The notes beneath the pieces were generated by a model. It did no database searches, had not been told where the DNA came from, and was given only the letters and a program-made list of their open reading frames with translations. A program made the translations under genes and the position numbers. A stretch of DNA of 64,000 nucleotides from a virus. Its lineage: Duplodnaviria > Heunggongvirae > Uroviricota > Caudoviricetes. Positions 1 to 60,521 of the stretch are shown piece after piece. The DNA is taken from IMG/VR virus record IMGVR_UViG_2703718819_000006; one strand, given 5' to 3'. Positions within the stretch are counted from its first letter, which is position 1. The number at the start of each line of letters is the position of its first letter.

Positions 1-219
1 AGCACCACGCGTAAGTAGCTCTATATGCTTTGCTATTTCCATTTGAATCTGAAGCCGCTCATATAGAGGCATAGAATCACCTACTCGAACACCGAGGCGG
101 CTCATCAAACTTCCGACACCAGCATCCACGTAAGGGATTCCGTAATGTTTGTCGATATATTTAGCCAGGGTTGTTTTCCCACTGCCCTGAGCACCAGTGA
201 TCCCAATCCGGTAATCCAT
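1..219 (-). CDS. P-loop nucleotide/nucleoside kinase-like protein (partial; C-terminal part lies beyond the window edge)
   Basis: Minus-strand ORF running off the left edge; my translation starts MDYRIGITGAQGSGKTTLAKYI (Walker A). Its ATG overlaps the DHFR stop (TAATG). Confidence 0.5.
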   Translation of the reverse strand, partial: MDYRIGITGAQGSGKTTLAKYIDKHYGIPYVDAGVGSLMSRLGVRVGDSMPLYERLQIQMEIAKHIELLTRGA

Positions 220-1105: not shown

Positions 1106-1106
1106 A

Positions 1107-2237: not shown

Positions 2238-2242
2238 TTATT
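2225..2242. promoter_or_regulatory. copy of recurrent GATAAGTA...TACTTATC palindrome
   Basis: GATAAGTAACCACTTATT at the thyA 5' end; one of about 17 similar intergenic copies. Confidence 0.3.
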
Positions 2243-2285
2243 CATTAAGTGAGTTTACATTTATTGAGGGAACAAGGCCAGATAG

Positions 2286-2312
2286 ATAAAAAAATGGTGG
2301 CCATAGGCCACC
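2286..2312 (-). terminator. rho-independent terminator after gene 2382..3251
   Basis: Perfect 7-bp stem GGTGGCC/GGCCACC with ATA loop, followed on the minus strand by a T-run. Confidence 0.6.
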
Positions 2313-2381
2313 AAAAACGAATAGTTGTTTCAGAAATTTAACGCGCCAGCGCAATATACACAGATAGATAACTACCTACAA

Positions 2382-3251: not shown

Positions 3252-3328
3252 GCTAGTTTTGTTCCTTCTTAATTCTTGTGATCCATTGTGGCCCAGCGTT
3301 GCCAGGCCACATAATGCTTTGTATCGGT

Positions 3329-4471
3329 TTACAGGTCTGCAAACTGGCTTAGAGAAGCCTTATCCACGGTAGAATCGATCTGACCTACCAGATATGTGCT
3401 TTGCTCTGCCTCTTGTGGTGCAATTTGCAGTGTGTCGGTTAACAACCACTTGTTCATCCAGACCAGCGGATCAGTGGTAACTTCTGGAAATAAAGCCTTC
3501 AGGCCAAGACGATTCATAGCCAGATTGGTGCGGTATTTTACATAGGTTTTGAGAATATCCGCGTTTAAACCAATCATCGAACCGTCTTTGAAGAGATAGT
3601 CGGCCCAGTTCATTTCTTGTTCGGCGACTGATTTCATGGTGTCGTAAATGACGTTTTCTTCATCAGCAGCAATCTCTTTCCACAATAAACCTTCGCGACC
3701 GGTACGCATGAAGCGGATCATGCGTTCAGTTCCTTCGCAATGCAGAGCTTCATCACGGGCAATAAAGCGCATAATTTTGGTGTTACCCTCAAGCAACTTC
3801 CGTTCACCAAAGGCAAACGTACATGCAAAACTTACGTAGAAACGGATCGCCTCAAGCGCATTAATGGACACCAACGTGCGGAAAAGCTGACGATGCAAAG
3901 GGTATGGCTCCCAGCCATATTCATTTACGTACAGACGCTCAAATTCCTTCTCACCTAACGACTGGCGCTCGCAGGTCATCCCATAAAGCCTGTCATATTC
4001 AGCAGAGATACTGATCGCTCGGTTGATGATTTCTTCATCCGTAACAATACCGTCAAAAACAATACTCGGATCGTCCACCATGCCACGAATAATGTGGGTG
4101 TAGCTGCGGCTATGGATAGTCTCAGAGAAAGACCACGTTTCAACCCACGTTTCCAGTTCAGGAATAGAGATAAGCGGCAGCAGCGTTGCATTTGGACTAC
4201 GTCCCTGAACTGAATCGAGTAACGTTTGATAACGGAGATTGCTCAGAAAAATGTGACGTTCGTGGTCCCGCAGCTTCGTGTTGAAGTCGATACGATCGCT
4301 CGAAATATCAACTTCTTCCGGCCGCCAGAAGAAAGACAATTGACGTTCAATCAACTTTTCAAAATCACGGTATTTTTGCTGATCGTAACGTGCCACGTTG
4401 ACAGATTGTCCGAGGAACATAGGCTCTTTGGTTGCATCATTAGCACCCAAACGGAACGTTGAATATGACAT
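3329..4471 (-). CDS. nrdB: ribonucleotide reductase class Ia beta subunit
   Basis: 380 aa; N-terminus [55 protein letters not shown] closely parallels E. coli NrdB as recalled. Confidence 0.95.
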
Positions 4472-4496
4472 GTGTTTTTCCTTTTTCTTTTTTGGT

Positions 4497-4517
4497 GCGT
4501 TTAAACAAGTTGTTATC
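4497..4517. promoter_or_regulatory. AACAAnTTGTT palindrome upstream of nrdB
   Basis: Minus-strand GATAACAACTTGTTTAAAC about 30 nt upstream of the nrdB ATG; similar sites at 18315-18332, 44135-44151, 47067-47084. Confidence 0.3.
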
Positions 4518-4577
4518 TTATGTGTTTAAACAAGGCTTACAAATCAAAGAGAAGGTGGGGATATCCCCCACCATATG

Positions 4578-6893
4578 TCAGATTTTGCAGGCTCCGTCGC
4601 ACTCATCTTCTGGCTCGACGGCTACAGCTTGCGTCAGTGGATTCTGCGGTTCGTCGTCATCACGCTTTCCTGCCCCATCTCTGGTGTTGTGGTAGTAAAG
4701 CGTTTTAACTCCCATCTTGTAGGCGAGAAGCAAATCTGACAGTAGCGTCATCATTGGGACTTTATCGCCTTCAAAGCGAGAAGGGTCATAGTTGGTATTG
4801 GCTGAAATAGCCTGGTCAAAGAACTTCTGGATGATCGCCACCTTTGTCAGATAGCCGCGGTTGTCCGGCATATCCCACAGGTATTCATACTGTTCCTTCA
4901 GTTTTTCAAACTCAGGCACGACCATCTTGACGATGCCGTCCTTAGAAGATTTCACTGACACCGGGCCACGAGGCGGTTCGATGCCGTTGGTGGAATTAGT
5001 GATCTGGCTGGAAGTCTCGCATGGCATTTGTGCCGTCAGTGTGGAGTTGCGAAGGCCGTATTTTGCAATACGTTCACGCAGTTCTTCCCACGGCATCTTT
5101 AACTCAAAGTTGGTTTCGCCACTTTCGTCTAATGAAGAACGGTAATGGTCGATCGGCAACTGACCAATTGCGTATTTGGTCTGCTCAAACCAGTCACACT
5201 CACCTTTTGCTTCAGCAAGTCGGCAGCTGGCATCAAGAAGGTAATACTGGATAGCTTCGAACGTTTCATGCACCAGTTTATTGCCAGCGGTATCAGAATA
5301 ACGAACGCCATTCTTTGCCAGGTAATAAGCAAAGTTGGTTACACCAATTCCCAAGCTACGACGAGCTTTGGCAGGCACTTCGGCTGCCTCCATCGGATAG
5401 TCTTGATAATCCAGTAACGAATCCAGTGCAGCAACGGCATAGAACGCCACCTCTTTAAGAGACTCCAGTGAACGGATGGCTCCGAGGTTAAAAGCGGATA
5501 AAGTGCATAGCGCGATCTCACCGTTCGGGTCGTCGGTAAATGCCAGTGGACGGGTGGGTAGGGTGATCTCCATACACAGGTTTGACTGGCGAACAGGTGC
5601 AAGAGCAGGAATGAAAGCGCCATGCTCATTAATATGATCGACGTTCGCAATATAAATTCGGCCCGTGGACGCTCGTTCCTGCATCAGAGATGAGAACAGC
5701 TCAATGGCAGGTACTGACTTCTTGCGAATTGAATCATCGGCTTCGTATTTATGGTACAGCTTTTCAAACAGCTCCTGGTCTGTGAAGAAGGCTTCGTACA
5801 TATCAGGCACATCATGCGGGCTGAACAGAGTGATGTTCTCGCTTCTGACGAGTCGACGGTACATTAGACGGTTACTCATGACGCCGTAATCAAGATGGCG
5901 AACGCGGTTTTCATCAATACCACGGTTATTTTTCACCACCAGCAGACTTTCAACTTCAAGATGCCAGATCGGGTAAAACGCTGTTGCTGCGCCACCACGA
6001 ACACCACCTTGCGAACAAGATTTAACAGCCGTCTGGAAATGCTTCAGGAATGGAATAACTCCAGTATGGGTGGCTTCACCATTGCGGATCTCGCTGCCCA
6101 GCGCACGGATACGGCCAAAACCAATACCAATTCCAGCACGACGTGAAACGTAGTCGATAATTGCGGCTGAAGCTGCACTAATCCCTTTCAGACTATCGCC
6201 AGACTCAATCAGCACACAACTGGAGAACTGACGGGTTGGAGTACGGACGCCGGCCATGATTGGTGTGGGCAGAGACAGTTTGAACGTACTTGTAACGTCA
6301 TAGAAACCTTTGACCATCTCCATACGTGTTTTGCCAGCGCAGTCGTCTTCCCAATTCTGGAACAGACACATGCCTACCAGCATATAGATATGTTGCGGTC
6401 CCTCATGAATCTCACCAGTAACACGGTTTTGAACGAGGTATTTGCTTTGCAACTGCACCGTAGCTGCATAGCCAAAAAGATCGTCACGTTTCGGCTTAAT
6501 GTAATTGCCGAGTTCTTCGATCTCTTCAAACGAATAATGTGTCAGCAAATCCTTGTCATAAACGCCCTTGTTAACGTTCTTGACAATGTGTTGGTAGAAG
6601 TTCGGATAGTCGTAACGACCGAAGGCATCTTTGCGGATTTTAAAAATGTTCAGGCGGGCAGCCACCTGTGAGTAATTTGGTGCTTCTGGTGAGATCAAAT
6701 CAGCGGCAGATTTAACCAAAGCCTCATGCAACTGGCTGGTGGTCATCCCATCAAAAATGCTGGCCGCAGCTCCCATTGCTACAGCGGATGCGCTTACACC
6801 ACGAATGCCTTCTACGCCATACATTACGACGCGGTTGTATTTTTCTTCGGATAACGGCTCTGTTTGGCCGTTACGTTTTACGATGCTTATCAT
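4578..6893 (-). CDS. nrdA: ribonucleotide reductase class Ia alpha subunit
   Basis: 771 aa; contains SLPTPIMAGVRTPTRQFSSCVLIE, KSCSQGGVRGGAATAFYPIWHLEVESLL, NLCMEI and C-terminal CDGACKI motifs of NrdA. Confidence 0.95.
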   Translation of the reverse strand: MISIVKRNGQTEPLSEEKYNRVVMYGVEGIRGVSASAVAMGAAASIFDGMTTSQLHEALVKSAADLISPEAPNYSQVAARLNIFKIRKDAFGRYDYPNFYQHIVKNVNKGVYDKDLLTHYSFEEIEELGNYIKPKRDDLFGYAATVQLQSKYLVQNRVTGEIHEGPQHIYMLVGMCLFQNWEDDCAGKTRMEMVKGFYDVTSTFKLSLPTPIMAGVRTPTRQFSSCVLIESGDSLKGISAASAAIIDYVSRRAGIGIGFGRIRALGSEIRNGEATHTGVIPFLKHFQTAVKSCSQGGVRGGAATAFYPIWHLEVESLLVVKNNRGIDENRVRHLDYGVMSNRLMYRRLVRSENITLFSPHDVPDMYEAFFTDQELFEKLYHKYEADDSIRKKSVPAIELFSSLMQERASTGRIYIANVDHINEHGAFIPALAPVRQSNLCMEITLPTRPLAFTDDPNGEIALCTLSAFNLGAIRSLESLKEVAFYAVAALDSLLDYQDYPMEAAEVPAKARRSLGIGVTNFAYYLAKNGVRYSDTAGNKLVHETFEAIQYYLLDASCRLAEAKGECDWFEQTKYAIGQLPIDHYRSSLDESGETNFELKMPWEELRERIAKYGLRNSTLTAQMPCETSSQITNSTNGIEPPRGPVSVKSSKDGIVKMVVPEFEKLKEQYEYLWDMPDNRGYLTKVAIIQKFFDQAISANTNYDPSRFEGDKVPMMTLLSDLLLAYKMGVKTLYYHNTRDGAGKRDDDEPQNPLTQAVAVEPEDECDGACKI

Positions 6894-36238: not shown

Positions 36239-36325
36239 TGGCGGAGAGTAATGGAATCGAACCATCATCGCTTGCGCAATGGGACGGTTTTCAAGACCGC
36301 TTGAGCACCATGCTCCCTACTCTCC
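36239..36325 (-). tRNA. tRNA-Ser (anticodon UGA), type II with long variable arm
   Basis: Hand-folded: acceptor GGAGAGT/ACTCTCC, anticodon loop CTTGAAA, T-arm GATGG-TTCGATT-CCATT, encoded CCA. Confidence 0.75.
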
Positions 36326-49737: not shown

Positions 49738-52700
49738 TTATTCTTCACGTGAATTTAACTTCGTTTCAAGCTCCTCAACCCTTTTGGTCAATTGCTGAAT
49801 ATGATGAATGAGTGGTACAACCAAACGCTCATACATCACTCCTTCAGCGACCATACCATTTGAGGAAATATCTTCTGGAGAATCATTATTTGTTGGTTCA
49901 CGCCAATGGACATATTGCGGGGCAATCTCACCAACCTCTTCAGCAATAAGGCCGTAATACCCCCAATCCTTTCGGTCACCTCGACAAATTGAACGATACC
50001 AAACAGGTCTTAATGACAAAAGTTCATCAGCATATCGATCTTGTAATGTTTCAATATCCTTTTTATAGCGCCTTGAAGAGGTTGAACGCCAAACTGTATT
50101 GATACCTGGGTTTGGATCAATGTACATATTGGCACCGCTAGTAGTTGTGCCAATATCCCATATAGCAAACCCTCCACTACCGCCTGATTTGACAACCAGT
50201 GTTTCAGCAATAATATCCAGGTTGCCACTATAGCCTGTCAGTGATGATCTGCTTGCATAGGAACTTAGAAGGTTTGTTACCTCTGTTTTCGTGTAAGCAT
50301 TAAGGTTAGTCGCAGTCAAAGTTATATCGGCAGAGCCATCAAACGCCACACCAGCAATTTTCCTTGCTGTCTGCAATTTTGTGGCGGTTGCGGCATTACC
50401 AGTAGTGTTCTGATTACCAGTTGTATTCACACCAGGGATTGAATCCTTAGCGGTATATACCTGCGCCCACTCTGACCATGCCGCACCTGTGTAATCTCTT
50501 CGGGAGCGAATGAAAACCGGCGCATGTGCACCGCTCGTACCACTCCAGCCAATAAGCAACTCGCCCTCACCAGCAGCACTCGCACCTTTCATGTGCAATA
50601 CGTTGCCATACGTGGTCGGGTAGCTATTGTTGTACGCCTCATACATTTGAATGCCAGCAGTGCCTTGAGTAGAGCCGCTTAACGCCGTAACTCGGCCACG
50701 AGATACCAATGTATTAATGTTGATATCGCCTGAGCCATCAAACCTAACACCATTGATGTTTCTCGCTGTTTGCAACTTCGTAGCTGTTGAAGCATTACCG
50801 TTCAAACTACCATTTACGCCACCAGTCACATTTAGTCCATTACCAATAGACACAACACCGCTGGTATTGTTAATTGTAATCGGTCGCAAGCCGTTCCATG
50901 AACCTAACGTATCTCCTGATGCTGTTAGCATGAAATATGTGCTGCCGCCGTCATTACGGATAAAGAACCCAAAGCTACCGTAAGCAATGCGGAAACCATT
51001 TGCATATTTTGAAACGATCTCACCAGAAGATGTCAAACCTCCAGATAATGTACCACCGGTAAGAGGTAATGCACCAACGTCAGATGCAGTTGGTTTGTTT
51101 TTCGTGTTATATACTCTTCGCCATCCTGGAGAATAATCTGTGCCATTAAATACATAGATAAACTCCGCATTAGTGAGAGCACCAGAGACACTCGTCGTTG
51201 TGGCCGTTGTTATACGGATCGTATAATTGTTTGAGCTACTACCGTTATTAAATACCTCTATAACAGCTCCTGCCAATGGAATAACGCCACAACCAGTTTC
51301 ACTATTTGGTATGGTTGCACTATTGGCATAGGCCCACGCACATCGAGCAATCCATGACTTTGTGTTAAATGCTCCATTATTTTGCAATAACGTCACTAAC
51401 TGTGCTGTTGTTATTGCTCCGCCATTACTTCCTGTAGTTAACCAACCAGTAGGAGATGCCGGGCAACCTATATTTGCTGGCGACAAGGAAATATTTGCCG
51501 AGCCGTCAAACGACACCCCATTAATAGTACGCGCAGTCTGCAACTTCGTAGCAGTAGCCGCGTTGCCCGTTGTATTCTGATTACCAGTCGTATTAACACC
51601 TGGCAAATTAATATTCGCAGTACCATCAAAGCTCACGCCGCCGATAGTTCTTGCCGTCTGAAGTTTTGTAGCAGTTGCAGCATTACCAGTGGTGTTCTGA
51701 TTACCCGTAGTATTTACACCTGGAAGGTTGATATTTGCAGAACCGTCGAAACCAACTCCACCGATAGATCTTGCCGTCTGCAATTTCGTTGCTGTACTTG
51801 CATTACCATTTAATGTTCCGGTGATCCCACCAGTAACAGACAACGGACCTGAAACTGTTCCTCCGGTTGTTGGCAGTGCACCAATATCTAACGGCGTCGG
51901 TTTCTGATGTGTGCTATACATCGTATAAACAACACCATCGGTAGCGCTGGAAGGCTTACTCGCTGAATATGTAGGCGATGTATAAATAGAAACTGACGCA
52001 TTTGCAGTACAATCCCAATGGATGTTTACACTCGTCGCATAATTGCCAATCTCAACGTAAATATCATATGTATCGCCGGATGTGTTGATCCAGGCGAAAT
52101 TCGTTAATCCGACGGCTGTACGCTTCCACAAAGCACCTGTAATCCCTTTGGGGTTTCCATTGCCTGCTCGTAGAACCAGTTCTGAAATGCCTGCCTGATG
52201 TGGGGAGCCGACGTTGTAACCAGCGCCACCAATCAATGCGATGTAAACGATGGAACTCGCTTGTGGCATGGTAACCGTAGCCAGTTTGAACCACCCAGCC
52301 CCGCCAGAGAAAGACATCGTTACTGAATTTAAAGTACCAATATCTTTCGGCGTTAATGTGATATCCGCAGTCAGTGCTTTACCGTTAACTTTTCTGTTAG
52401 ATGGCACCCTGCTATTCGCATTGTCATTGGCTGCTTTAACTGCTTTTGGCGTTGCGGCCAGCGATTCACTGGTGCTGTCGACAGCACTGCTAAGTTTCAC
52501 AACACCTTTGGTGGTAAGGCTTGCGTCTTCCATCGCAACTGCATCGGCAATCTCTTCAGCACGATCAGCGGCAGCTTCCGCACGGGTCGCAGCGGATTCA
52601 GCAGCAGTTTTGCTCTGAGATGCAGCTGTCGCACTGCCTGCCGCCTCTGTTGCCTTTGTTGACGCTATCACAGCACTTCCAGCAGCCTCAGATGCTTGAC

Positions 52701-53580
52701 GTGCAGCCTCATCTTTTGAAGCAGAAGCAGAACTCTCTGATGAAGACGCAGAACTTGCAGATTCAGCAGCTGCGGCCATAGAGGAAGCCGCATTGTCTTC
52801 TGAAGCCTTTGCATTTAATTCAGATGACTTTGCTTCTAATGCATAATTTTTCGCAGTTGTTGCCTGATTTGTGGCCTCTATAGCTTTTTCATTAGCCGCA
52901 GCAGCTGCTGATGATGCGATAGCCTCCGATTGTGCAGCTGCTTCTTTTGCTAATTCTGCGTTCGTTTCAGATACCCTTGAAGCAGACTCACTCGCGCTAG
53001 CGGCACTTTGTGACGAAGCTGCAGCCTGTGCACTTTGAGACGCTTGAGAGGCTTTTTCTCCAGCGGTATTGGCGCTTTCTGCTGCTGCGGCAGCACTGGC
53101 CGCCGCCTCACGAGCTTTGTCGCCAGCAGCATCAATCGCGTCAGTGTTATTTTTATACCACTCAACGTTTTCGTTGTGCTCGTTGACGATCTGCATTAGC
53201 GGCTTAACGGTCACTTCTGTACCGTCTTCACGCTCGATTGTCACCTCATCCAGAGCAGTCAACCAACTGCGCATGGACTTGGAATCAGCTGACATACGCG
53301 ACATTAGCGCAGTAAAGCGCGCGCTAAACTGTGTTAAGTCGCCTTCATAGGTCGTAATGATTCGGCACGGAACTTCAGACTGAGTTTCGCCGGTATAAGG
53401 TTCTGAGAGAACAATATTCGTATCACTGGTTACACGCTTGATCTCATACAGCTTATTGTCGGGACCAATGACGATCATTCCCGGCAACACACCATTAGCT
53501 GTTACGTTCCAGGCTGTCCCAACCCCAACTAGAGTATTACTACCCTGTGTAAATGTGATAGTACCTTCCCTGTACCACAT
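49738..53580 (-). CDS. side tail fibre protein with C-terminal intramolecular-chaperone (peptidase S74-like) domain
   Basis: 1280 aa; Ala/Ser/Glu-rich coiled region; five copies of a GN(Q/A)(N/S)TTGNAATATKLQTAR...FDGSA repeat; C-terminus (NMYIDPN...SRRYKKDIETL...YGLIAEEV...) resembles the self-cleaving chaperone of T5 pb1 and endosialidases. Confidence 0.85.
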   Translation of the reverse strand: MWYREGTITFTQGSNTLVGVGTAWNVTANGVLPGMIVIGPDNKLYEIKRVTSDTNIVLSEPYTGETQSEVPCRIITTYEGDLTQFSARFTALMSRMSADSKSMRSWLTALDEVTIEREDGTEVTVKPLMQIVNEHNENVEWYKNNTDAIDAAGDKAREAAASAAAAAESANTAGEKASQASQSAQAAASSQSAASASESASRVSETNAELAKEAAAQSEAIASSAAAAANEKAIEATNQATTAKNYALEAKSSELNAKASEDNAASSMAAAAESASSASSSESSASASKDEAARQASEAAGSAVIASTKATEAAGSATAASQSKTAAESAATRAEAAADRAEEIADAVAMEDASLTTKGVVKLSSAVDSTSESLAATPKAVKAANDNANSRVPSNRKVNGKALTADITLTPKDIGTLNSVTMSFSGGAGWFKLATVTMPQASSIVYIALIGGAGYNVGSPHQAGISELVLRAGNGNPKGITGALWKRTAVGLTNFAWINTSGDTYDIYVEIGNYATSVNIHWDCTANASVSIYTSPTYSASKPSSATDGVVYTMYSTHQKPTPLDIGALPTTGGTVSGPLSVTGGITGTLNGNASTATKLQTARSIGGVGFDGSANINLPGVNTTGNQNTTGNAATATKLQTARTIGGVSFDGTANINLPGVNTTGNQNTTGNAATATKLQTARTINGVSFDGSANISLSPANIGCPASPTGWLTTGSNGGAITTAQLVTLLQNNGAFNTKSWIARCAWAYANSATIPNSETGCGVIPLAGAVIEVFNNGSSSNNYTIRITTATTTSVSGALTNAEFIYVFNGTDYSPGWRRVYNTKNKPTASDVGALPLTGGTLSGGLTSSGEIVSKYANGFRIAYGSFGFFIRNDGGSTYFMLTASGDTLGSWNGLRPITINNTSGVVSIGNGLNVTGGVNGSLNGNASTATKLQTARNINGVRFDGSGDININTLVSRGRVTALSGSTQGTAGIQMYEAYNNSYPTTYGNVLHMKGASAAGEGELLIGWSGTSGAHAPVFIRSRRDYTGAAWSEWAQVYTAKDSIPGVNTTGNQNTTGNAATATKLQTARKIAGVAFDGSADITLTATNLNAYTKTEVTNLLSSYASRSSLTGYSGNLDIIAETLVVKSGGSGGFAIWDIGTTTSGANMYIDPNPGINTVWRSTSSRRYKKDIETLQDRYADELLSLRPVWYRSICRGDRKDWGYYGLIAEEVGEIAPQYVHWREPTNNDSPEDISSNGMVAEGVMYERLVVPLIHHIQQLTKRVEELETKLNSREE

Positions 53581-53672: not shown

Positions 53673-56600
53673 TTACAGAAGGCCAATTCTTACTCGTAGG
53701 ACGTTGTTATCGTCATAAACGTCAATCCGCTGACCATTTATGACCAGTCGCCCATTACCTCCGCTATTACCGTTGATCTCAAGCGTTCCATTTTTGCCAA
53801 ACCGCCATCCAGATCTACCGCTAACAAAATTGGTAGATTGCAGATCACCTACCTTTGCATTGGTGATTGTACCATCCTTGATATACGCACCATTCATGTA
53901 AGCGATACTGTTTTCGATAACAAATGGCGTGGTGATCTGCCCGTTTACTGAGTTAACCAAACCAAATCTATCAGCCTGCACCAAAAACTGAGAAAGACCT
54001 GTTGTGTCAATTCCAAGAGCAATGCCTGCAACGTACTTCTGTCCTCCGCTAGTGGAGGTTTCCATTTTCAACGTATACGCAGTTGATACTTTTCTGTTTG
54101 TATCAGCAATAGCTGTCGCCTGCTGTTGAATTGTTGCACTATTTCCATTCACCTCAGCTCTAAGAGTATCAATTCGACCACCCAGAGCATTATCTGCCTG
54201 CGTTCTCGCTGTCGTTTCGGTTGTGACCGCCGCAGAAATGTTGGCTGCTGTTTGAGACTCTAAATTTGTGATTTGAGTCGCCAATGCAGCATCCTGCTCT
54301 GTACGTGTTTGCGTCTCAGTTGCAATCGCAGCTTTTATGTCGTCCTTATATTTGGAGGTTAGTGTGGTAATCCGCGATGATAATGCCGAGTCAGCATCAA
54401 CCCTGGCCTGTGCTTCAGTTGTTATATCTGCTCTAATATCATTCGTCGTCTGAGTTATTAAACTTGATAAATCTCTTGTTAAAGCCTCATCACCATCTGC
54501 TCGAGCAGTTGTCTCTCTGGCAATATACGCCTCGAGATCATTAGCTTTTGCTGTAAGAGATGTAATCTGGCTGGATAATGCGCTATCGGCATCCGTCCTT
54601 GCCTTTGTCTCTACAGCAACAGCTGCGGCAATATCAGTTCCGGTCTGCGCTCGCAGGCTGTTAATTTCTCTGGATAACGCCTCATCAGCACTTGCTCTTG
54701 CTTCCTGCTCTTGAGTAATGGCTGCTGATATATCATCGTCAACCCGTGCCCGGAGTTGGTTTATTTGTTGGGCTAAAGCAGAGTCCCCGTTTGCACGAGC
54801 CTCCTGCTCACTACGTATTGCAGCAGAAATATCATCATCAACTTTTGCCTGAAGTTGAGTGATCTGGCTTGCCAGCGCAGAATCTTCCGTTGCTCGTGCT
54901 TCTTGCTCCTCCCTAATTGCCGCTACGATATCGTCACTTACTTTTGACTCAAGCTGAGTGATCTGTGTTGTCAGAGCCTCATCAGCAGATGCACGAGCCT
55001 CCTGTTCTGTGCTAATCGCCGCGCTGATATCTCCTTCAAACTTAGATTGCAGCTGAGTTACACGGTTTGACAACGCTTCATCACCATCTACGCGCGCGGT
55101 AGATTCTTCCAGAATGCTACTCCTGATGTCTTCTTCAAGTTCAACACGAATCTCTTCAACCTTCGTAGCCATTGCAGACATATCATCAGCAAAGGTTTTC
55201 TGTGTTGTTGAGATCTTCGCGTTATTGACCATCTGCTTGTGCTGGTCTTCATCTTGACGAAGAGCCAGGTCAATATTTGTTTTGGCCAACGCCTCAATGT
55301 TCGTAGTAAGTTCTGCGCTGGCACGATCGACCTCTGCAACCGTCTTTTTCATTTCTTCAACGGCAGCGGAGCTTTCCTCTACCGTTGACTGCAACACTTC
55401 CAGTTGTTTAGCGTTTGCAGCATCACCTTCTACACGAGCCTCGCGCTCCTCAGCAATAAGAGCCGCAGCTTCGTTTCTTGCCGCACTTATCGCCTCGGCT
55501 GCGTTAGCAAGTGCAGTATCGTGTTCAGATACGGTGTTTTCGATTTCAACAATTGCAGCATTAGTAGCATCAATTTTTTCAAACGCTTCATTGACCTTAT
55601 CGATCGTTGCAGAAACCTCACCTCTAAGCTCGTTTTGCGCACTCTCCAAAGCATCGCTGCGCTCATTGAAGGTTATTTCAAAGTCCGCGATGTTGTCGCT
55701 GAACTGCTTTTCTAAGTCAGCTATATCTTCCTTAACGTTGTTTACCGTCCCCTCCAAAGATTCGACGCTCTGGTTGATATGATCATTTAACTCGTCAACT
55801 GCTTCTTGAGAGGCTTTGCTGTTGATGTCCTCAAGCAGAGCCTGACCAAGCTCAGACGATGTAATCTTACCTTCCAGGAACGACAATACATCGCGAGTTG
55901 TCGCCTCTGTACCCAAGTTTGAGTTCGGAGGACTTAACATGCCGCGCTTGTTCGATGCTCGAATCCAGTAATACCACGTTTCGCTATCCCCAAGACCAGC
56001 ATGTGTAAAGGTGGTGCTTGCAGACTCTGCGATCAGTGTCGCCATATCCAGATTGTTGGTCTGGGATGCGTAAACATTAATGTGATCAAGGTCTACCGAA
56101 TCTGGATTAATCCAATTCAGTATCACATTACGATAGTCTCCAACGGCCGTTAATGACGTTGGTGCATCAGGCGGTGTCATTGTGCCCAGCACCTGATAAA
56201 CGGTACTGATAATCTCTGTTTTTTTACCGTTGAATGAAACCGCATACAGTTGGAAGTCGTAGCGTCCATTCTCCGCGACATTAACGATTTCGTATTGCTC
56301 TTCGGTTACACGTGCCGATTGCCAGTTCGATACATTGTTTTCATCAGAACGTCGCCAACTGATCCAATACTCTGGAGATTTCCCTTCCCATGTTGCAGTC
56401 AGTTTTACTGACAGGTTGCCTGGGCTTGAGAGATAAGTCCCTTCGGTGATTTGCAAATTAGACGGCTTGGAGTAAGTCGGGTCCAATACCGTCGTATTCT
56501 GCGGGATAAGCGTTGCACCATTGTCAATCGCCTCATATTTAGACGGATTGTTCTCAACAGCGGTGATGTCAAAGCTACCCGGCGTTTCCCCCTGCGCGAT

Positions 56601-58406
56601 GTTAACGATGCGAACGCGCATAGGTTCGAGATCTGGTTCTGTAATTGTCCAGACACCGTTCAAAACAGGCGTTTCCGCTGACGACAGAGCTTTTGAAAAC
56701 GTAACCTTTGTTATGTTTTCGCCAGTTTCAAGAACATCGCGTTCAACGATTTTGCCTTCCTGATTCAATATCCGAATAAAGCTGCCGCTTTTAGCTAACG
56801 ACACAGGCGCATCGAGAGTGATGCTGTTTTTGGTAAACTCCACAATTCGACCGGAGTTACGTTTACCTGCACGATATTTGTTCTGAATCAGAACGGTTTC
56901 ACCGGGCATCAGAAATGAGGCGTCTAAACCGGCAGTAAATGTAATTACATCCGACTCCATTCTGGCGGTATACAAAAGCCACAAACCAACTCGGTGAGCC
57001 TGGCCTCGGCTTGTACATCCAAATGCTACGACTTCTGTTTTACGCTCACCATAACGGCGCATTGCGTCCTGATCTTCAACGTACTCGATGTTTTGCTTAT
57101 AACCGTCCTCCTTGTTGTTGTAGGTTACGAGCGCAACGGATGGGCGATCTTTACGCGCAGAACCTTTATAGGTAAACAGTCCATCTTTGACGTTGGAGTT
57201 GGTAAACATCATTACCGGATCTGATGGACTATCCTGCATGATGTTAACCATGCCACCAGCCCAAAACACCATACCGCGGAATGCACCGGCAATATCCTGA
57301 ATTAATCGGTATGCGTCCTGTCGACTGGTGATCTGCGTATTGATTGCAAAGCGTTTCTCTTTACCACCAAAGCCATCATCAACCTCTTCGTCACAATATC
57401 GACCGATCTGGTATAGCTGGCCGAGGTCAATCATAGATTCCGACACATACTGACCAAGGCCATATCGAGCATTGGTAAGCAAATCAAAGAGAATCCACGC
57501 AGGGTTTGAAGAAGACAACAGCTTAAAAGTGCCATCCCATACACCATCATAAGTGTTGCTTGCCTCGTTGTAGTTTGACGGCACGCGAATTTTTAATCCA
57601 CGCACCAAATACGAACGAGATGGCATGGTGCTACCAAATTGCTCAGAATTAACCTTCAGACCCACCAGCACAGAGTTTGGGTAGTTCATCGGTGTATCTA
57701 CAATCTCACCTATTGAGTCCACCCATGTATCGTTATAGAGATACTGGCTGCTGTTATCATCGGTAATACGGACTACACGAACCTTGTACGCGCGTCCAGG
57801 CTTAGGCAGCTTCAGCTCATAGCTACGGTAATAAACACCTGTCTTCTTTGCAGTTAGCTTAATGCCAACGCTTTTTTCACCTTCTGCGACCACATCTACA
57901 AATGTTGAGTCGCCATTTGCTATCTGGAACTTGTACTCAACGGTTGTACCGTTCGTGTCACCAGTTTTTTTATCTATGCTTCGCAAAGAAGGAAACTTCA
58001 TGATGACACGAACCCGATCAGCTTCATCGTTATCGATTGAAACCGTTACATAATGTGTTTTTTTTAACTGGATATTGACGGATTTAGGCGTTTCAACGAA
58101 ATCAAAGCCAGACATTGGAGTCTGGTCTTGCGAACCGTCGCGAAAATCCCATGTGATTCCGCTGAAGTTGGAGGAACCGTCTTCATTTACAATCGGCAGA
58201 TCGTCGATAAAAATAGATCTTGCGCCATTTACCAAGCCGCCAATTACCCCTTCCCCAAGAAGATCGAGGATAGCGGCCATTGCACGAGAATTTACGGTAT
58301 CGTCGGCTTCAACCGGTGTACGGCTAGAGCTTTTGCTGCTTTTTTTACCACCCGCACCTGCAATAAACAGCGGTAACTTTTTCTTCTTGAACTGTTCCAT
58401 GTTCAA
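53673..58406 (-). CDS. central tail fibre / host-specificity protein (lambda gpJ-like)
   Basis: 1577 aa; segments VNSEQFGS, RVPSNYN, GVWDGTFK, AFGCTSRGQAHRVGLWLL parallel lambda J as recalled; includes about 33-aa tandem coiled-coil repeats (EQEARAxADxAL). Confidence 0.85.
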   Translation of the reverse strand: MNMEQFKKKKLPLFIAGAGGKKSSKSSSRTPVEADDTVNSRAMAAILDLLGEGVIGGLVNGARSIFIDDLPIVNEDGSSNFSGITWDFRDGSQDQTPMSGFDFVETPKSVNIQLKKTHYVTVSIDNDEADRVRVIMKFPSLRSIDKKTGDTNGTTVEYKFQIANGDSTFVDVVAEGEKSVGIKLTAKKTGVYYRSYELKLPKPGRAYKVRVVRITDDNSSQYLYNDTWVDSIGEIVDTPMNYPNSVLVGLKVNSEQFGSTMPSRSYLVRGLKIRVPSNYNEASNTYDGVWDGTFKLLSSSNPAWILFDLLTNARYGLGQYVSESMIDLGQLYQIGRYCDEEVDDGFGGKEKRFAINTQITSRQDAYRLIQDIAGAFRGMVFWAGGMVNIMQDSPSDPVMMFTNSNVKDGLFTYKGSARKDRPSVALVTYNNKEDGYKQNIEYVEDQDAMRRYGERKTEVVAFGCTSRGQAHRVGLWLLYTARMESDVITFTAGLDASFLMPGETVLIQNKYRAGKRNSGRIVEFTKNSITLDAPVSLAKSGSFIRILNQEGKIVERDVLETGENITKVTFSKALSSAETPVLNGVWTITEPDLEPMRVRIVNIAQGETPGSFDITAVENNPSKYEAIDNGATLIPQNTTVLDPTYSKPSNLQITEGTYLSSPGNLSVKLTATWEGKSPEYWISWRRSDENNVSNWQSARVTEEQYEIVNVAENGRYDFQLYAVSFNGKKTEIISTVYQVLGTMTPPDAPTSLTAVGDYRNVILNWINPDSVDLDHINVYASQTNNLDMATLIAESASTTFTHAGLGDSETWYYWIRASNKRGMLSPPNSNLGTEATTRDVLSFLEGKITSSELGQALLEDINSKASQEAVDELNDHINQSVESLEGTVNNVKEDIADLEKQFSDNIADFEITFNERSDALESAQNELRGEVSATIDKVNEAFEKIDATNAAIVEIENTVSEHDTALANAAEAISAARNEAAALIAEEREARVEGDAANAKQLEVLQSTVEESSAAVEEMKKTVAEVDRASAELTTNIEALAKTNIDLALRQDEDQHKQMVNNAKISTTQKTFADDMSAMATKVEEIRVELEEDIRSSILEESTARVDGDEALSNRVTQLQSKFEGDISAAISTEQEARASADEALTTQITQLESKVSDDIVAAIREEQEARATEDSALASQITQLQAKVDDDISAAIRSEQEARANGDSALAQQINQLRARVDDDISAAITQEQEARASADEALSREINSLRAQTGTDIAAAVAVETKARTDADSALSSQITSLTAKANDLEAYIARETTARADGDEALTRDLSSLITQTTNDIRADITTEAQARVDADSALSSRITTLTSKYKDDIKAAIATETQTRTEQDAALATQITNLESQTAANISAAVTTETTARTQADNALGGRIDTLRAEVNGNSATIQQQATAIADTNRKVSTAYTLKMETSTSGGQKYVAGIALGIDTTGLSQFLVQADRFGLVNSVNGQITTPFVIENSIAYMNGAYIKDGTITNAKVGDLQSTNFVSGRSGWRFGKNGTLEINGNSGGNGRLVINGQRIDVYDDNNVLRVRIGLL

Positions 58407-58418
58407 AAAAATCCTTGT

Positions 58419-59012
58419 TTACATTAGCTGGTCAATCGTGATTGAAGAACTCACAACCTGTGAGCCAACCAGAATTTCCTCGCCATAGATAAGTTGTACT
58501 GGATTGCCCTGGTTTTCTGTATTTTGAGGGCCGTCGAAATAATATGAGTTCGAATTATCCGCTTGCCTCACACTTTCGTTAGTGGCTTGTGGCGATATGA
58601 TTTGTGATATACCGCCCATCATCAGTGACAAACCGAGAGGTGCTAAAGCAGGCATCATTACCGCCGATACAACCAACAAAGCGGCCCCTACTACCGTCTG
58701 AAACCACCCAAAAGCAGATCCGCCGCTCCCTCGCGGAACAGGGGTAATGCGTATTTTGGCAATGTTGTCAGACTGCCCCATCATCTGATATTCACTCTCG
58801 TCCACAGACCACTTGTGGCCCTGTTTATTGGTGATCTGGATGTGGTATCTGTCATAGGTTTTGATATTGCGCTTCATCCATGCTTTAAACCCAGGCTTGT
58901 TGGCCTCAATTAAATCCAGAGCCTGTTTTGTATTACGCACCTTTAGATGCCAGTGGCGGCCAAAATGTTTGGCCATAGGGCCGCCAAGCTGCACATGAAC
59001 TAACTCAGACAC
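58419..59012 (-). CDS. tail assembly protein (lambda gpI-like)
   Basis: 197 aa; Gly/Ala-rich hydrophobic middle and position between the K-like and J-like genes. Confidence 0.65.
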   Translation of the reverse strand: MSELVHVQLGGPMAKHFGRHWHLKVRNTKQALDLIEANKPGFKAWMKRNIKTYDRYHIQITNKQGHKWSVDESEYQMMGQSDNIAKIRITPVPRGSGGSAFGWFQTVVGAALLVVSAVMMPALAPLGLSLMMGGISQIISPQATNESVRQADNSNSYYFDGPQNTENQGNPVQLIYGEEILVGSQVVSSSITIDQLM

Positions 59013-59824
59013 GTCTCATCTCCCTTGAGCAAGTCTCTGTGACGCAAGTGATGCGTCGTATGTTTCTGATACATCCCGCCGTAATAAGCACGACAACTAA
59101 GGCGGTCGATCTGGTGATGAAGAATCATTCCATCGCCGATATAAACCGCACAGTGGTCAGGCATTTTTCCGTATTGGATAAAGAAGACGTCCCCACGTTG
59201 AGGTTCTGTTCCGGGCGCAAGCCGTACCAATCCTTCGTTTCGGTAGTTCTGATCGAGAATGTCGTTATCGCCGGTGTACCACGATGGAATATGCAGGTGT
59301 GCGTTCGGGTTTAGTTCGACGTTAAACTCACGCTTCAAATAGTCCCGACACAACATCCAGCAATCGAATACGCCAAATACATACGGTCTGCCCAGGTATG
59401 GCATTTCGAAACCATCAGGTGTGATCACATTCATCTCGCTAAAATGGAAAGGGGCGTCTCCCTCAACATTCTTGCGAATAGCCAGAATCATCCACGGAAC
59501 TTCCGTCGCTTCGCAGCCTGCACGATCGGCATCAGATGCTTCTGCTGATTCATCAGTATGTGAATGCCAGATTGCGATAACATCACCAGCATCCTCTGCC
59601 GCCATAATGTCGTCAACATGCATTACAAAAGTGCTCTGCGGGTTCTCCGAAACATTTCGCGCTTCCATAAAGCGATATTTGTCGCCATTAGTTCTCACCA
59701 GAAAGCCACACGCTTCATTAGGGTAGCGATTTATGGCGCAGAGATAGATTTGCTGCATAACATCAGAGCCAAGCTCAGGGATTGCTTTATTACCCATATC
59801 GCGTAGCTCCAATAAACCCGCCAA
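59000..59824 (-). CDS. tail assembly protein (lambda gpK-like; JAB/MPN plus NlpC/P60)
   Basis: 274 aa; JAMM-type motif IWHSHTDESAEASDAD in the N-terminal half; C-terminal Cys/His region. Confidence 0.8.
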   Translation of the reverse strand: MAGLLELRDMGNKAIPELGSDVMQQIYLCAINRYPNEACGFLVRTNGDKYRFMEARNVSENPQSTFVMHVDDIMAAEDAGDVIAIWHSHTDESAEASDADRAGCEATEVPWMILAIRKNVEGDAPFHFSEMNVITPDGFEMPYLGRPYVFGVFDCWMLCRDYLKREFNVELNPNAHLHIPSWYTGDNDILDQNYRNEGLVRLAPGTEPQRGDVFFIQYGKMPDHCAVYIGDGMILHHQIDRLSCRAYYGGMYQKHTTHHLRHRDLLKGDETCLS

Positions 59825-60521
59825 AATGGATCACTCCGTTGGCAAAATAATTCCGACGCGCATTACAGGCGTCATAACGTTTTGTGCAGTAATCAGCACC
59901 AGACATAGACGTCTGCTGGTTATTTTTGTCGAAATATGGACCGGTATAGCCGCATTCTGGCCCTCGGTATTTCCACGGGCAGGTGTTTTTAATGATCTGA
60001 CGATACGGCAGTTGCACCCCCATCAAATCGAACACACTGGACAATTCAAACTCGACAACCTGATGAGTTTCGAGAGTTTTCTGTTCGATAAACCACATTT
60101 CATCCGGGAAATGTTGGTTTGGATCTGCTGTTGGGTTGCCGTCTTTAAAATTAACGGCATCGAGGAAGCGAGCCAGCGTCATCTTGCGAATAATGCGGCA
60201 GCCAACCAGATCGTCGTTCGCCTGAACTTCCGCAGAGACGGTTCCGGCAAAGTTCGATACCTGAATTTTTGGACGTGGCAACGTTCCCTGGCCAGTTTTG
60301 TCAAAGCCTGATGCTTTGATTGGCCACGGCTCGTATGTCACTCCTTGCCAGACGACCGGTTGCATCAGTTCGTTTGTTCCGGCGTGGAAAAACAGCTCCC
60401 CCCCTGAAGTTGTGTTCGACATATCCAGTACGAACAACTCAATGAGTGCAGAGGGAGATAAGCTCTGAATATCAGCTTTAATTCCCATTGTTTCATCCTT
60501 GAAATAAGTAGGCGCTGACAT
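59790..60521 (-). CDS. minor tail protein (lambda gpL-like)
   Basis: 243 aa; VVWQGVTYEPWPI, RFLDAVNFKDGNPTADP and C-terminal Cys cluster (CPWKYRGPECGY...C) parallel lambda L as recalled. Confidence 0.75.
   Translation of the reverse strand: MSAPTYFKDETMGIKADIQSLSPSALIELFVLDMSNTTSGGELFFHAGTNELMQPVVWQGVTYEPWPIKASGFDKTGQGTLPRPKIQVSNFAGTVSAEVQANDDLVGCRIIRKMTLARFLDAVNFKDGNPTADPNQHFPDEMWFIEQKTLETHQVVEFELSSVFDLMGVQLPYRQIIKNTCPWKYRGPECGYTGPYFDKNNQQTSMSGADYCTKRYDACNARRNYFANGVIHFGGFIGATRYG

What the first reader, a model, noticed from the sequence alone, without database searches (positions are those of the whole stretch)
54150..55170. Tandem 33-aa (99-bp) coiled-coil repeats inserted in the gpJ-like protein
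At least eight consecutive repeats of the type DDDISAAIxxEQEARAxADSALxxQIxxLxAK are present. They are absent from lambda J as I recall it, and the protein seems to lack the lambda-type C-terminal receptor-binding domain. The repeats may act as a length spacer, and copy-number variation could tune tip geometry.
Basis: partly seen in the sequence, partly recalled or inferred. Interest (0 to 1): 0.4.

Follow-up and report, generated by a model that had tools for sequence, protein, structure and literature searches.

The report
Repeat-built helical shaft of phage tail fibre
The tail-tip protein of this E. coli phage-plasmid carries ten tandem 33-residue units that form a long helical shaft, related to the pyocin shaft recently shown to refold into a beta-prism to fire the tail, so it is a long new member of a known family.

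Summary
Minus-strand gene 53673-58406 encodes a 1577-aa lambda-J-like central tail fibre of an SSU5-type phage-plasmid. Residues 1092-1420 (nt 54147-55133) are ten tandem 33-aa units, not eight, and one unit has 32 aa. Lag-33 identity is 0.48, against at most 0.18 in 2000 shuffles.

Compared with lambda J, residues 862-1421 are an insertion inside lambda's short alpha-helical shaft. The lambda-type C-terminal receptor-binding domain is absent.

Array length is quantised, at 3 to 12 units in 44 distinct relatives. It is fixed at 10 in the closest lineage. The DNA units are only about 50% identical, so slippage-driven variation is unlikely.

The array is homologous to the coiled-coil shaft of F-type pyocin central fibres (E 3e-25). 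2026 work showed that this shaft docks side fibres and switches from a trimeric coiled coil to a beta-prism on cell contact. Every unit here carries the published SxSxxMxxLxS motif twice, in opposite orientations, plus the Glu-Arg salt-bridge pair. The neighbouring side fibre's N-terminus matches the pyocin side-fibre domain that docks on the shaft (E 1e-4).

Verdict: a long, regular new member of a recently described kind. The spacer idea is partly right but probably incomplete.

The parts
53673..58406 (-). Gene for the J-like central tail fibre protein (1577 aa from TTG; probable ATG start at 58400)
   Evidence: ORF list. Pfam hits: FNIII-A_GpJ 104-238, Phage-tail_3 360-523, fn3 647-730, Phage_Tail_Tip 1425-1559. 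PHROG 'central tail fiber J'. PDB sequence hits to lambda J, F2 pyocin fibre and T1 gp33.
55824..58406 (-). Hub domains plus FNIII domains (aa 1-861), collinear with lambda J 2-835
   Evidence: BLASTP against lambda J; phmmer against PDB.
55134..55823 (-). Non-repetitive helical part of the shaft (aa 862-1091); proline-free, hydrophobic period 3.55
   Evidence: AF2 model helices at 868-1029 and 1040-1164; composition and periodicity.
55377..55475 (-). Isolated extra repeat unit (aa 978-1010)
   Evidence: Repeat-HMM hit 110 aa upstream of the array, present in all close relatives.
54147..55133 (-). Array of ten tandem units (aa 1092-1420; 9 x 33 aa plus 1 x 32 aa)
   Evidence: lag-33 identity 0.476; motif hits at phases 5 and 20 of every unit.
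54087..54146 (-). Degenerate eleventh unit (aa 1421-1440). It aligns to lambda J 841-861, the helix segment that becomes beta-sheet on LamB binding, and to F-pyocin residues ~1063-1083.
   Evidence: Alignments; register layout; PMC11101478. AF2 already predicts strands from aa 1413.
53730..54134 (-). Central straight fibre / beta-prism tip domain (Pfam PF09327, aa 1425-1559)
   Evidence: Pfam E 6e-41. Foldseek hits to lambda J 8xcj/8xci and SU10 7z4b.
53673..53729 (-). Short conserved C-terminal end (aa 1560-1577, ...LRVRIGLL) and stop codon; no lambda-type receptor-binding domain follows
   Evidence: The same ending occurs in T1 gp33 (9l9p) and phage DEV 9ze4.
49738..53580 (-). Side tail fibre gene (1280 aa) directly downstream
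   Evidence: ORF list. Pfam Phage_fiber_2, Gp34_trimer and Peptidase_S74.
53260..53577 (-). [quoted passage not shown]
   Evidence: phmmer against PDB: 25ve_A residues 3-104, E 4.5e-4; profile search E 1e-4. Conserved at E 1e-40 to 1e-72 in most array-bearing relatives where the gene downstream of J was recovered, while the rest of the fibre varies.

Best explanation
The ten units build most of an unusually long trimeric alpha-helical shaft. The shaft lies between the FNIII domains that close the tail tip and the distal beta-prism tip domain of the central tail fibre.

Resting virion (inferred): the shaft is a coiled coil with a roughly 11/3-residue hydrophobic period. Each unit adds nine helical turns, about 5 nm, so whole-unit gain or loss changes length without rotating the tip. 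The shaft probably also carries the docking site for the side fibres.

Firing (by homology with the F-type pyocin central fibre, not shown here): the shaft is probably metastable. Receptor contact would nucleate beta structure at the tip domain. The units would then zip, one beta-hairpin per unit, into a triangular beta-prism. This would shorten the fibre, pull the FNIII plug apart and open the tail.

Status of each step:
- Shown here: the repeat, its quantised copy number, its homology to the pyocin shaft, the motif content, a helical prediction, and the homology of the side-fibre N-terminus.
- Inferred: trimeric state, docking, and the fold switch.
For: Repeat and periodicity
- Ten units with lag-33 identity 0.476.
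- VILMF periodicity of 3.65 residues, no proline and only 7 Gly in 329 aa.

Structure prediction
- The AF2 monomer model gives long helices over aa 868-1404 and strands from aa 1413. Mean pLDDT is 70.7.

Homology to solved proteins
- F2-pyocin fibre 25vf, E 3.4e-25, aligning units 6-10 plus the tip to residues 927-1193.
- T1 gp33 (9l9p), E 3.4e-32, with its own near-identical 33-aa units.
- Every residue cited for the pyocin shaft in the three pyocin papers is present at that number in the aligned F2 fragment: D950, D951, D953, D954, G955, D961, A987, A995, A998, A1011, E1039, R1043, L1050, I1054. E1039-R1043 therefore corresponds to the invariant E10-R14 of the units.

Motif content
- The SxSxxMxxLxS motif of He et al. 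(PMC12874032) occurs reversed at phase 5 and forward at phase 20 in all ten units. That is 28 hits, against 5.3 +/- 2.1 in shuffles with a maximum of 15.
- The unit is mirror-symmetric in residue class about a turn-like xGD/xAD centre.

Lambda comparison
- Lambda J has a short helical shaft whose residues 841-861 become beta-sheet on LamB binding (PMC11101478). Window residues from 1422 align to lambda 841 onwards.

Side fibre
- Its N-terminus matches the F2-pyocin side fibre N-terminus (E 4.5e-4 and 1e-4). That domain docks on the shaft (PMC13455828; PMC12874032).

Copy number
- Array lengths in 44 distinct relatives are always n x 33 or n x 33 - 1 aa, with n = 3 to 12.
Against: - No trimer prediction was possible, so neither the coiled coil nor the beta-prism was modelled. 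The monomer model has moderate confidence and three breaks (1030-1039, 1165-1178, 1254-1257), which may be artefacts.
- With my HMM the pyocin shaft contains only one canonical unit and about two degenerate ones. Extending its behaviour to ten units is an extrapolation.
- He et al. predict that a 33- or 40-residue helical insert stays helical in two phages (TLS and Shlf1), so not all units need switch.
- The pyocin accessory tip proteins PyoF11/F12 have no counterpart between J and the side fibre here.
- The side-fibre match is weak. The AF2 model of that domain is poor (pLDDT 61) and its fold search was not decisive.
- One of the pyocin studies describes a mostly heptad register, not hendecads.
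- The key fold-switch paper is a preprint.
Confidence: 0.6

Rival explanations
1. Static spacer only. The repeats form a rigid coiled-coil rod whose only role is to set the distance between tail tip and distal domain. Unit number adapts reach to the host's surface layers, and no refolding occurs.
For: - The prediction is helical and the hydrophobic period is regular.
- Length is quantised at 3-12 units among lineages infecting different Enterobacterales.
- There is a weak positive correlation between unit number and side-fibre length (rho 0.42, p 0.016).
Against: - A plain spacer would not need conserved small residues at the six S positions, nor a mirror-symmetric motif with turn-like centres.
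- The homologous pyocin shaft refolds, and mutants that block refolding are inactive (PMC12874032).
- Even lambda's short shaft partly converts to beta-sheet.
- Within the 10-unit lineage, side-fibre length varies from 272 to 1647 aa.
Confidence: 0.25
2. Constitutive beta fibre. In the virion the units are already folded as a beta-prism or beta-helix, and the helical prediction is an artefact of monomer modelling.
For: - He et al. report that AF3 predicts a beta-prism for 30% of related phage fibres, and that AF2-multimer with deep alignments predicts only the prism.
- The motif fits beta-hairpins.
- AF2 already puts the last third of unit 10 in a strand.
Against: - The hydrophobic period is 3.65, not 2.
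- The E10-R14-D18 i/i+4 ladder is invariant.
- The monomer AF2 model is helical.
- The pyocin pre-ejection state solved by three groups is a coiled coil.
Confidence: 0.1
3. Contingency locus. The tandem repeat changes copy number frequently by slippage or unequal recombination, giving rapid host-range switching.
For: Copy number differs between lineages in whole units. Units 3 and 4 are the most similar protein pair, at 76% aa identity (62% nt). The highest DNA identity is between units 2 and 3, at 68%.
Against: - Mean DNA identity between units is 50%, and the longest shared word is 15 nt.
- TRF finds no array.
- 28 loci of the nearest lineage have 10 units. In 162 E. coli plasmids one match covers at least 80% of the gene, and the listed top hits match 1-4732 in a single piece.
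- Units are positionally orthologous between the window and phage Cyrano.
Confidence: 0.03

Closest known systems
Central fibre protein of F-type pyocins (P. aeruginosa PA0641; PDB 25vf/25vj/26ci; F7 pyocin of He et al. 2026)
   Same: - Same domain order: hub, FNIII, long trimeric helical shaft, PF09327 beta-prism tip.
- Significant sequence match over shaft plus tip (E 3.4e-25).
- Same SxSxxMxxLxS motifs and Glu-Arg pair.
- Side-fibre gene downstream whose N-terminal domain is similar.
   Different: - The pyocin shaft is about 165-180 aa, with only one canonical and about two degenerate 33-aa units. Here the helical segment is about 580 aa with ten regular units.
- No PyoF11/F12-like tip proteins are encoded here.
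- This is a DNA-injecting phage-plasmid, not a tailocin.
Phage T1 central fibre gp33 (PDB 9l9p; PMC11945409)
   Same: Best PDB sequence hit to the repeat-plus-tip region (E 3.4e-32). It contains 33-aa units (ALSREIDQLKAQIGDDIQASLTDIRE...) and the same ...LRVRIG C-terminal ending, with no lambda-type RBD.
   Different: T1 has fewer units, and two of them are nearly identical, suggesting recent duplication. Its central positions are hydrophobic instead of E/R/D. Its C-terminus 821-1172 was not resolved, so no structure exists for the repeats.
Lambda gpJ alpha-helical shaft and central straight fibre (PDB 8iyk, 8xci, 8xcj)
   Same: Hub, FNIII and PF09327 domains are collinear. Lambda's shaft residues 841-861 also convert to beta-sheet on receptor binding, and the fibre shortens from 29.7 to 13.2 nm.
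   Different: Lambda's shaft is about 50 aa with no repeat unit. Lambda has a C-terminal Ig-like RBD (residues ~972-1132) that binds LamB, and this is absent here.
J proteins of other SSU5-type phage-plasmids (SSU5 gp20, Cyrano CYRAN_20, PhiR41_1, Y. pestis pMT1, Kluyvera, Xenorhabdus)
   Same: Same gene in the same L-K-I-J-fibre order, with the same unit and the same tip domain.
   Different: Unit number differs: SSU5 5, PhiR41_1 9, Cyrano 10, pMT1 6, Xenorhabdus 12. Some, such as pMT1, add 140-168 aa after the tip domain.

Membership tests
Lambda-J-like tip attachment / central tail fibre protein (TipJ) | N-terminal hub domains (Pfam Phage-tail_3, FNIII-A_GpJ) collinear with lambda J | tested here: met
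   Pfam E 7.5e-34 and 1.5e-29. Window 20-861 aligns to lambda J 2-835, E 2e-115.
Lambda-J-like tip attachment / central tail fibre protein (TipJ) | Central straight fibre domain (Pfam PF09327 Phage_Tail_Tip) | tested here: met
   aa 1425-1559, E 6.4e-41. Foldseek hit to lambda 8xcj, E 4e-7.
Lambda-J-like tip attachment / central tail fibre protein (TipJ) | Gene position after the L, K and I homologues and before the side fibre | tested here: met
   Phage_tail_L at 59790-60521 and a JAB+NlpC/P60 K-like protein at 59000-59824. Annotated relatives show the L-K-I-J-fibre order.
Lambda-type receptor-binding C-terminus | About 160-aa C-terminal Ig-like RBD after the tip domain (Pfam PF12421 in lambda-like J) | tested here: not met
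   Only 18 aa follow PF09327, and there is no PF12421 hit. The alignment to lambda stops at lambda residue 931-971. Some relatives do carry such an extension.
Fold-switching coiled-coil central fibres (F-pyocin type; He et al. 2026) | Sequence homology to the C-terminal ~400 aa of the F-pyocin central fibre | tested here: met
   phmmer E 3.4e-25 to 25vf_A residues 927-1193.
Fold-switching coiled-coil central fibres (F-pyocin type; He et al. 2026) | Long helical, coiled-coil-prone segment between the FNIII domains and the beta-prism | tested here: met
   AF2 helices span 868-1404. Hydrophobic period is 3.65 with no proline. Trimeric packing itself was not modelled.
Fold-switching coiled-coil central fibres (F-pyocin type; He et al. 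2026) | SxSxxMxxLxS motif in alternating orientation, with small residues at the S positions | tested here: met
   Reversed at phase 5 and forward at phase 20 in 10 of 10 units. 28 hits against 5.3 +/- 2.1 in shuffles.
Fold-switching coiled-coil central fibres (F-pyocin type; He et al. 2026) | Asp/Glu at M positions paired with Arg four residues away | tested here: met
   E10, R14 and D18 are invariant in all ten units. E10-R14 aligns with pyocin E1039-R1043.
Fold-switching coiled-coil central fibres (F-pyocin type; He et al. 2026) | [quoted passage not shown] | not testable with these tools
   Only monomer AF2 is available. It gave helices.
F-pyocin-type fibre complex | Side fibre with an N-terminal OB-like domain that docks on the shaft | tested here: inconclusive
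   Sequence match of side fibre aa 2-107 to F2-pyocin side fibre 3-104, E 4.5e-4 and 1e-4. The AF2 model has pLDDT 61 and the fold search was not decisive. Docking itself was not tested.
F-pyocin-type fibre complex | Small tip proteins (PyoF11/PyoF12) encoded just after the central fibre gene | tested here: not met
   The J stop is at 53673 and the side fibre starts at 53580. No ORF lies between them.

The most novel reading that the evidence does not exclude
The 33-aa unit is a modular 'spring element': one beta-hairpin of a fold-switching shaft. Its copy number (3-12 in otherwise similar SSU5-type tails, up to about 20 recognisable units in metagenomic relatives) would then set the stroke length, about 4 nm of contraction per unit, and the stored energy of a non-contractile tail's firing mechanism. 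The natural unit series in these phage-plasmids would be a ready-made dose series for testing how non-contractile tails power envelope penetration.
Probability: 0.3. Interest if true: 0.6.

Novelty: new member of a known kind. Interest (0 to 1): 0.4.

Why it matters
How non-contractile tails obtain the energy to open and breach the envelope is a long-standing question. The 2026 pyocin work proposes a coiled-coil-to-beta-prism switch and predicts it in many phages.

This locus shows that the switch region can be built from a strictly modular 33-aa unit. The residue pattern of the unit is mirror-symmetric, which suits a beta-hairpin. Copy number is quantised and differs 3-12-fold among closely related, cultivable phage-plasmids of E. 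coli, Salmonella, Yersinia pestis (pMT1), Klebsiella and others. That gives a tractable system for testing length and energy dependence.

It is also a practical annotation point. The 'extra' 560 aa in these J proteins is a shaft, not a receptor-binding domain.

None of this changes the fact that the module itself belongs to a large, already recognised family.

Tried and rejected
- Tandem Repeats Finder on the DNA found nothing at period 99. The repeat is visible only at protein level or with loose DNA seeds.
- My first 33-aa register gave a false drop in identity after unit 6. The cause was one 32-aa unit, and this was corrected.
- A slippage or contingency-locus reading was rejected on DNA divergence and on invariance in the nearest lineage.
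- AF2 on the C-terminal 748 aa gave helices of moderate confidence but could not address trimer states. Foldseek on that model matched only the tip domain.
- AF2 of the side-fibre N-terminus was poor (pLDDT 61). Its PDB fold search gave only weak small-beta-barrel hits, such as phage endosialidase N-termini and a Chi tail-tip chain. The pyocin side fibre did not appear among the hits, possibly because the fold library stops at April 2026.
- The supplement of He et al. is not held, so I could not check whether SSU5-like phages were among their 24 fibres. 'SSU5', 'repeat', 'heptad' and 'hendecad' do not occur in its main text.
- The genome-contig scan gave only 7 loci.
- The search for homologous proteins returned mostly fragments under 910 aa, so full-length relatives were taken from loci instead.
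- A literature search for SSU5 virion morphology gave nothing usable.
- Co-variation of unit number with side-fibre length is weak and not corrected for phylogeny.
Full report
**What is in the sequence**

The finding lies inside one long minus-strand ORF, 53673..58406, of 1577 aa counted from a TTG. Annotated homologues start at the ATG two codons later, so their numbering is mine minus 2.

Laid out in rows of 33 residues, the protein shows a clear tandem repeat. After correcting for one 32-aa unit, there are ten units at aa 1092-1420, which is nt 54147-55133.

- Columns E10, R14, D18, A20, L21 and L28 are invariant.
- D2, I3, A5 and A13 are conserved in 9 of 10 units, and I7 and I25 in 8 of 10.
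- Mean pairwise identity is 46% at the amino-acid level and 50% at the nucleotide level. The nucleotide maximum is 68%, and the longest shared exact word is 15 nt.
- Identity at lag 33 is 0.476. The best lag in any of 2000 shuffles reached 0.181.
- Tandem Repeats Finder sees no DNA array. The repeat finder recovers only short families spaced 96/99 nt.
- A single extra unit sits at aa 978-1010.
- No ORF of 80 aa or more lies on the opposite strand within the array.

**The protein and its context**

Pfam places four domains on the protein:

| Domain | Residues |
|---|---|
| FNIII-A_GpJ | 104-238 |
| Phage-tail_3 | 360-523 |
| fn3 | 647-730 |
| Phage_Tail_Tip (PF09327) | 1425-1559 |

PHROGs calls it 'central tail fiber J'. 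Upstream lie an L homologue and a K-like JAB/NlpC-P60 protein. Downstream lies a 1280-aa side fibre with a Peptidase_S74 chaperone end.

The gene is 91-94% identical to genes on about 110-kb E. coli plasmids and in phages CMS-2020a and Cyrano. It is 78% identical, over its first 61%, to Salmonella phage SSU5. The window is therefore an SSU5-type phage-plasmid. The side-fibre N-terminus is 100% identical to E. coli proteins.

**Comparison with lambda J**

BLASTP aligns window 20-861 to lambda J 2-835, and window 1422-1510 to lambda 841-931. The repeat HMM finds no unit in lambda J. Residues 862-1421 (560 aa, of which 329 are the array) are therefore inserted relative to lambda.

Lambda J continues about 160 aa beyond the tip domain into its LamB-binding domain. 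The window protein ends 18 aa after PF09327 and has no PF12421 hit.

The lambda literature adds context. Lambda J has a short alpha-helical shaft (residues 809-861) above a beta-sheet prism, the 'central straight fibre'. On LamB binding, residues 841-861 of that shaft turn into beta-sheet and the fibre shortens from 29.7 to 13.2 nm (PMC11101478). The insertion here sits in the middle of that shaft.

**Copy number in relatives**

I fetched 85 loci from viral and genome collections using the tip domain as query. I extracted the J ORF from each, and from the three annotated phage loci fetched earlier, and counted units with an HMM built from the ten units.

In 44 distinct arrays the length from the first unit to the tip domain is always n x 33 or n x 33 - 1 aa. 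The observed lengths are 99, 131/132, 164/165, 198, 230, 263, 296, 329, 362 and 395 aa, giving n = 3 to 12.

| Relative | Units |
|---|---|
| SSU5, Kluyvera | 5 |
| Y. pestis pMT1 | 6 |
| PhiR41_1 | 9 |
| Window, Cyrano | 10 |
| Xenorhabdus hominickii | 12 |

All 28 loci of the closest lineage have 10 units. In 162 E. coli plasmids one match covers at least 80% of the gene, and the listed top hits match 1-4732 in a single piece.

Units are positionally orthologous between the window and Cyrano. PhiR41_1 lacks one of the window's units 3 or 4, which are the most similar pair. Copy number therefore changes by whole units over evolutionary time. It is not unstable, and the DNA is too diverged for frequent slippage.

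Similarity to more distant relatives breaks off at nt ~2613-2657 (aa ~871-886) or at nt ~3257-3326 (aa ~1086-1109). These points are the start of the helical segment and the start of the array, so the gene is mosaic at domain borders.

**How widespread the module is**

A full HMMER scan of 1.84 billion cluster representatives with aa 1092-1577 found 3267 proteins at E <= 1e-3 and 239 at E <= 1e-30. Among the top hits, recognisable units number up to about 20-23 per protein, with contiguous runs of up to 13.

An alignment of 109 diverse homologues keeps the consensus AAIxxExxARxxADxALxxxIxxLxA several times over. The module is common, and ten units is long but not extreme.

**Solved relatives and the literature**

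Sequence search of the PDB with the repeat-plus-tip region gave the following hits.

- **Phage T1 gp33** (9l9p, E 3.4e-32). It has its own near-identical 33-aa units. Its C-terminus 821-1172 was not resolved (PMC11945409).
- **F2-pyocin central fibre** (25vf, E 3.4e-25). It aligns units 6-10 plus the tip to residues 927-1193.
- **Weaker hits.** These include 23gd gp24 and Pseudomonas phage DEV 9ze4. Lambda J (8iyk, 8xcj, 8jvm, 9wca) matches only the tip domain.

Three 2026 papers describe the pyocin fibre.

- He et al. (preprint PMC12874032) show that residues 921-1083 form a trimeric coiled coil in the pre-ejection state. On cell contact this becomes a triangular antiparallel beta-prism.
  - The tail tip opens and the tape-measure protein is ejected.
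  - Gln substitutions at buried small residues block killing without blocking assembly.
  - Each strand carries SxSxxMxxLxS, in the orientation of the strand.
  - Asp/Glu at M positions pair with Arg at +/-4, for example E1039-R1043.
  - AlphaFold predicts both states in 21 of 24 related phage fibres.
- Gu et al. (PMC13455828) and a third preprint (10.64898/2026.02.24.707460) show the same helical shaft. Three side-fibre trimers dock on an acidic kink (residues ~950-961) through their N-terminal OB-like domains and stems.

**Mapping those features onto the window**

The F2 fragment printed carries every residue cited in those papers at the stated numbers. The alignment therefore equates pyocin E1039-R1043 with the invariant E10-R14 of the units.

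- Scanning aa 1092-1420 for the motif gives 28 hits, against 5.3 +/- 2.1 in shuffles (maximum 15).
- The hits are strictly phased: reversed at phase 5 (A5-x-I7-x-x-E10-x-x-A13-x-A15) and forward at phase 20 (A20-x-S22-x-x-I25-x-x-L28-x-A30) in all ten units.
- The unit is mirror-symmetric in residue class about positions 17/18. Small residues sit at 5/30, 13/22 and 15/20. Hydrophobic residues sit at 3/32 and 7/28.
- The centre reads xGD or xAD, and is DGD or NGD in units 1, 4 and 7.

From this I infer that one unit corresponds to one beta-hairpin (two strands) of the prism. I also infer that the canonical part of the pyocin shaft (~985-1083) equals about three units, or six strands.

The segment just after the array (aa 1421-1440) looks like a degenerate eleventh unit. 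It aligns to lambda 841-861 and to pyocin ~1063-1083. AF2 already predicts strands from aa 1413, within the last unit. This fits the proposed 'seed' for switching.

**Structure prediction**

AF2 (monomer, 109-sequence alignment) on aa 830-1577 gave the following.

- Helices at 868-1029, 1040-1164, 1179-1253 and 1258-1404, followed by beta structure.
- Mean pLDDT 70.7 and pTM 0.27.

The hydrophobic (VILMF) periodicity is 3.65 residues in the array, close to 11/3, and 3.55 upstream. There are no prolines in the roughly 580 aa of the helical segment. Foldseek matched only the tip domain, to lambda J and to the SU10 tip fibre. Trimer states cannot be modelled with the tools available.

**Side fibre**

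Residues 2-107 of the downstream fibre match residues 3-104 of the F2-pyocin side fibre. The E-value is 4.5e-4 as a single sequence and 1e-4 as a profile, and this is the top hit in the whole PDB.

This N-terminal domain is conserved (E 1e-40 to 1e-72) in most array-bearing relatives where the gene downstream of J was recovered. The rest of the fibre varies from 272 to 1647 aa. That pattern fits a conserved docking partner.

The AF2 model of the domain is weak (pLDDT 61) and its fold search was not decisive. Docking on the shaft therefore remains an inference.

**Most likely mechanism**

Using standard geometry (about 0.15 nm rise per helical residue, about 0.48 nm between beta-strands), my estimates are as follows.

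- The array would be about 49 nm long as a helix, or about 5 nm per unit.
- The whole helical segment 862-1440 would be about 87 nm if continuous.
- As hairpins, the array would stack to about 10 nm.

The best-supported model has four elements:

1. A trimeric shaft that holds the three FNIII-2 domains together and carries the side fibres.
2. A distal beta-prism tip domain.
3. On receptor contact, propagation of beta structure up the shaft, unit by unit. This shortens the fibre and releases the FNIII plug, as seen in the pyocin and, in miniature, in lambda.
4. Whole-unit quantisation, which keeps both the helical phase (33 residues is nine turns at 11/3) and the hairpin parity.

I put about 0.85 on 'helical shaft homologous to the pyocin shaft', about 0.5 on side-fibre docking, and about 0.5-0.6 on the fold switch. 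Overall confidence is 0.6.

**Verdict on novelty**

The module belongs to a large family whose behaviour was described in 2026. I did not find three points stated in the papers I could read:

- the strictly modular 33-aa architecture;
- the mirror-symmetric unit;
- the quantised 3-12-unit series in SSU5-type phage-plasmids.

This is a new, long member of a known kind and is of moderate interest.

Noticed in passing
window 49738-53580 (-): The side tail fibre is a mosaic. It has a conserved N-terminal domain, then an Ala/Ser-rich low-complexity stretch (aa ~150-340). It also carries several copies of a GNQNTTGNAATATKLQTAR motif (Pfam Phage_fiber_2), a T4 gp34-type trimerisation domain and a C-terminal Peptidase_S74 intramolecular chaperone. 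In relatives the part after the N-terminal domain varies from 272 to 1647 aa.
   Followed up: partly
window 36239-37218 (-): A cluster of four tRNA genes (Ser-TGA, Thr-TGT, Tyr-GTA, Asn-GTT) lies on the phage-plasmid. Rfam confirms three of them.
   Followed up: no
window 55750-55790 and 55080-55150 (J aa ~871-886 and ~1086-1109): DNA similarity to more distant relatives (Klebsiella, PhiR41_1; SSU5, Yersinia, Enterobacter) breaks off exactly at the start of the helical segment or at the start of the repeat array. This suggests modular exchange of the distal part of J.
   Followed up: partly
J units 1, 4 and 7 (aa 1107-1109, 1206-1208, 1304-1306): Every third unit, and the isolated unit at 978-1010, has Gly at phase 17 (DGD/NGD/EGD). 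The other units have Ala, Glu or Gln there. This may be a three-unit super-period or a set of kink sites. The pyocin side-fibre docking site is an acidic Gly-containing kink.
   Followed up: no
loci L050, L053-L062, L085, L086 (e.g. Yersinia pestis pMT1): Some SSU5-type relatives with 3-6 units carry an extra 112-168 aa after the tip domain. Three database fragments with the repeats also have Pfam PF12421, the lambda-J C-terminal family. Both tip types therefore coexist in this phage-plasmid family.
   Followed up: partly
E. coli plasmids NZ_CP020118.1 and NZ_CP085184.1 (hits H20, H30): In some plasmids the J gene is interrupted by IS1 or IS1203. These are likely defective phage-plasmids that can no longer make tails.
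   Followed up: no
window 58400-58406: The ORF tool starts J at a TTG (MNMEQF...). Annotated homologues start at the ATG two codons downstream (1575 aa), so residue numbers differ by 2.
   Followed up: yes
PDB 23gd chain B ('Distal tail protein gp20', 199 aa): The second-best PDB hit of the side-fibre N-terminal domain is a protein deposited as a distal tail protein. It comes from the same entry whose J-like gp24 also matches the repeat region. This small N-terminal domain may be a shared attachment module.
   Followed up: no
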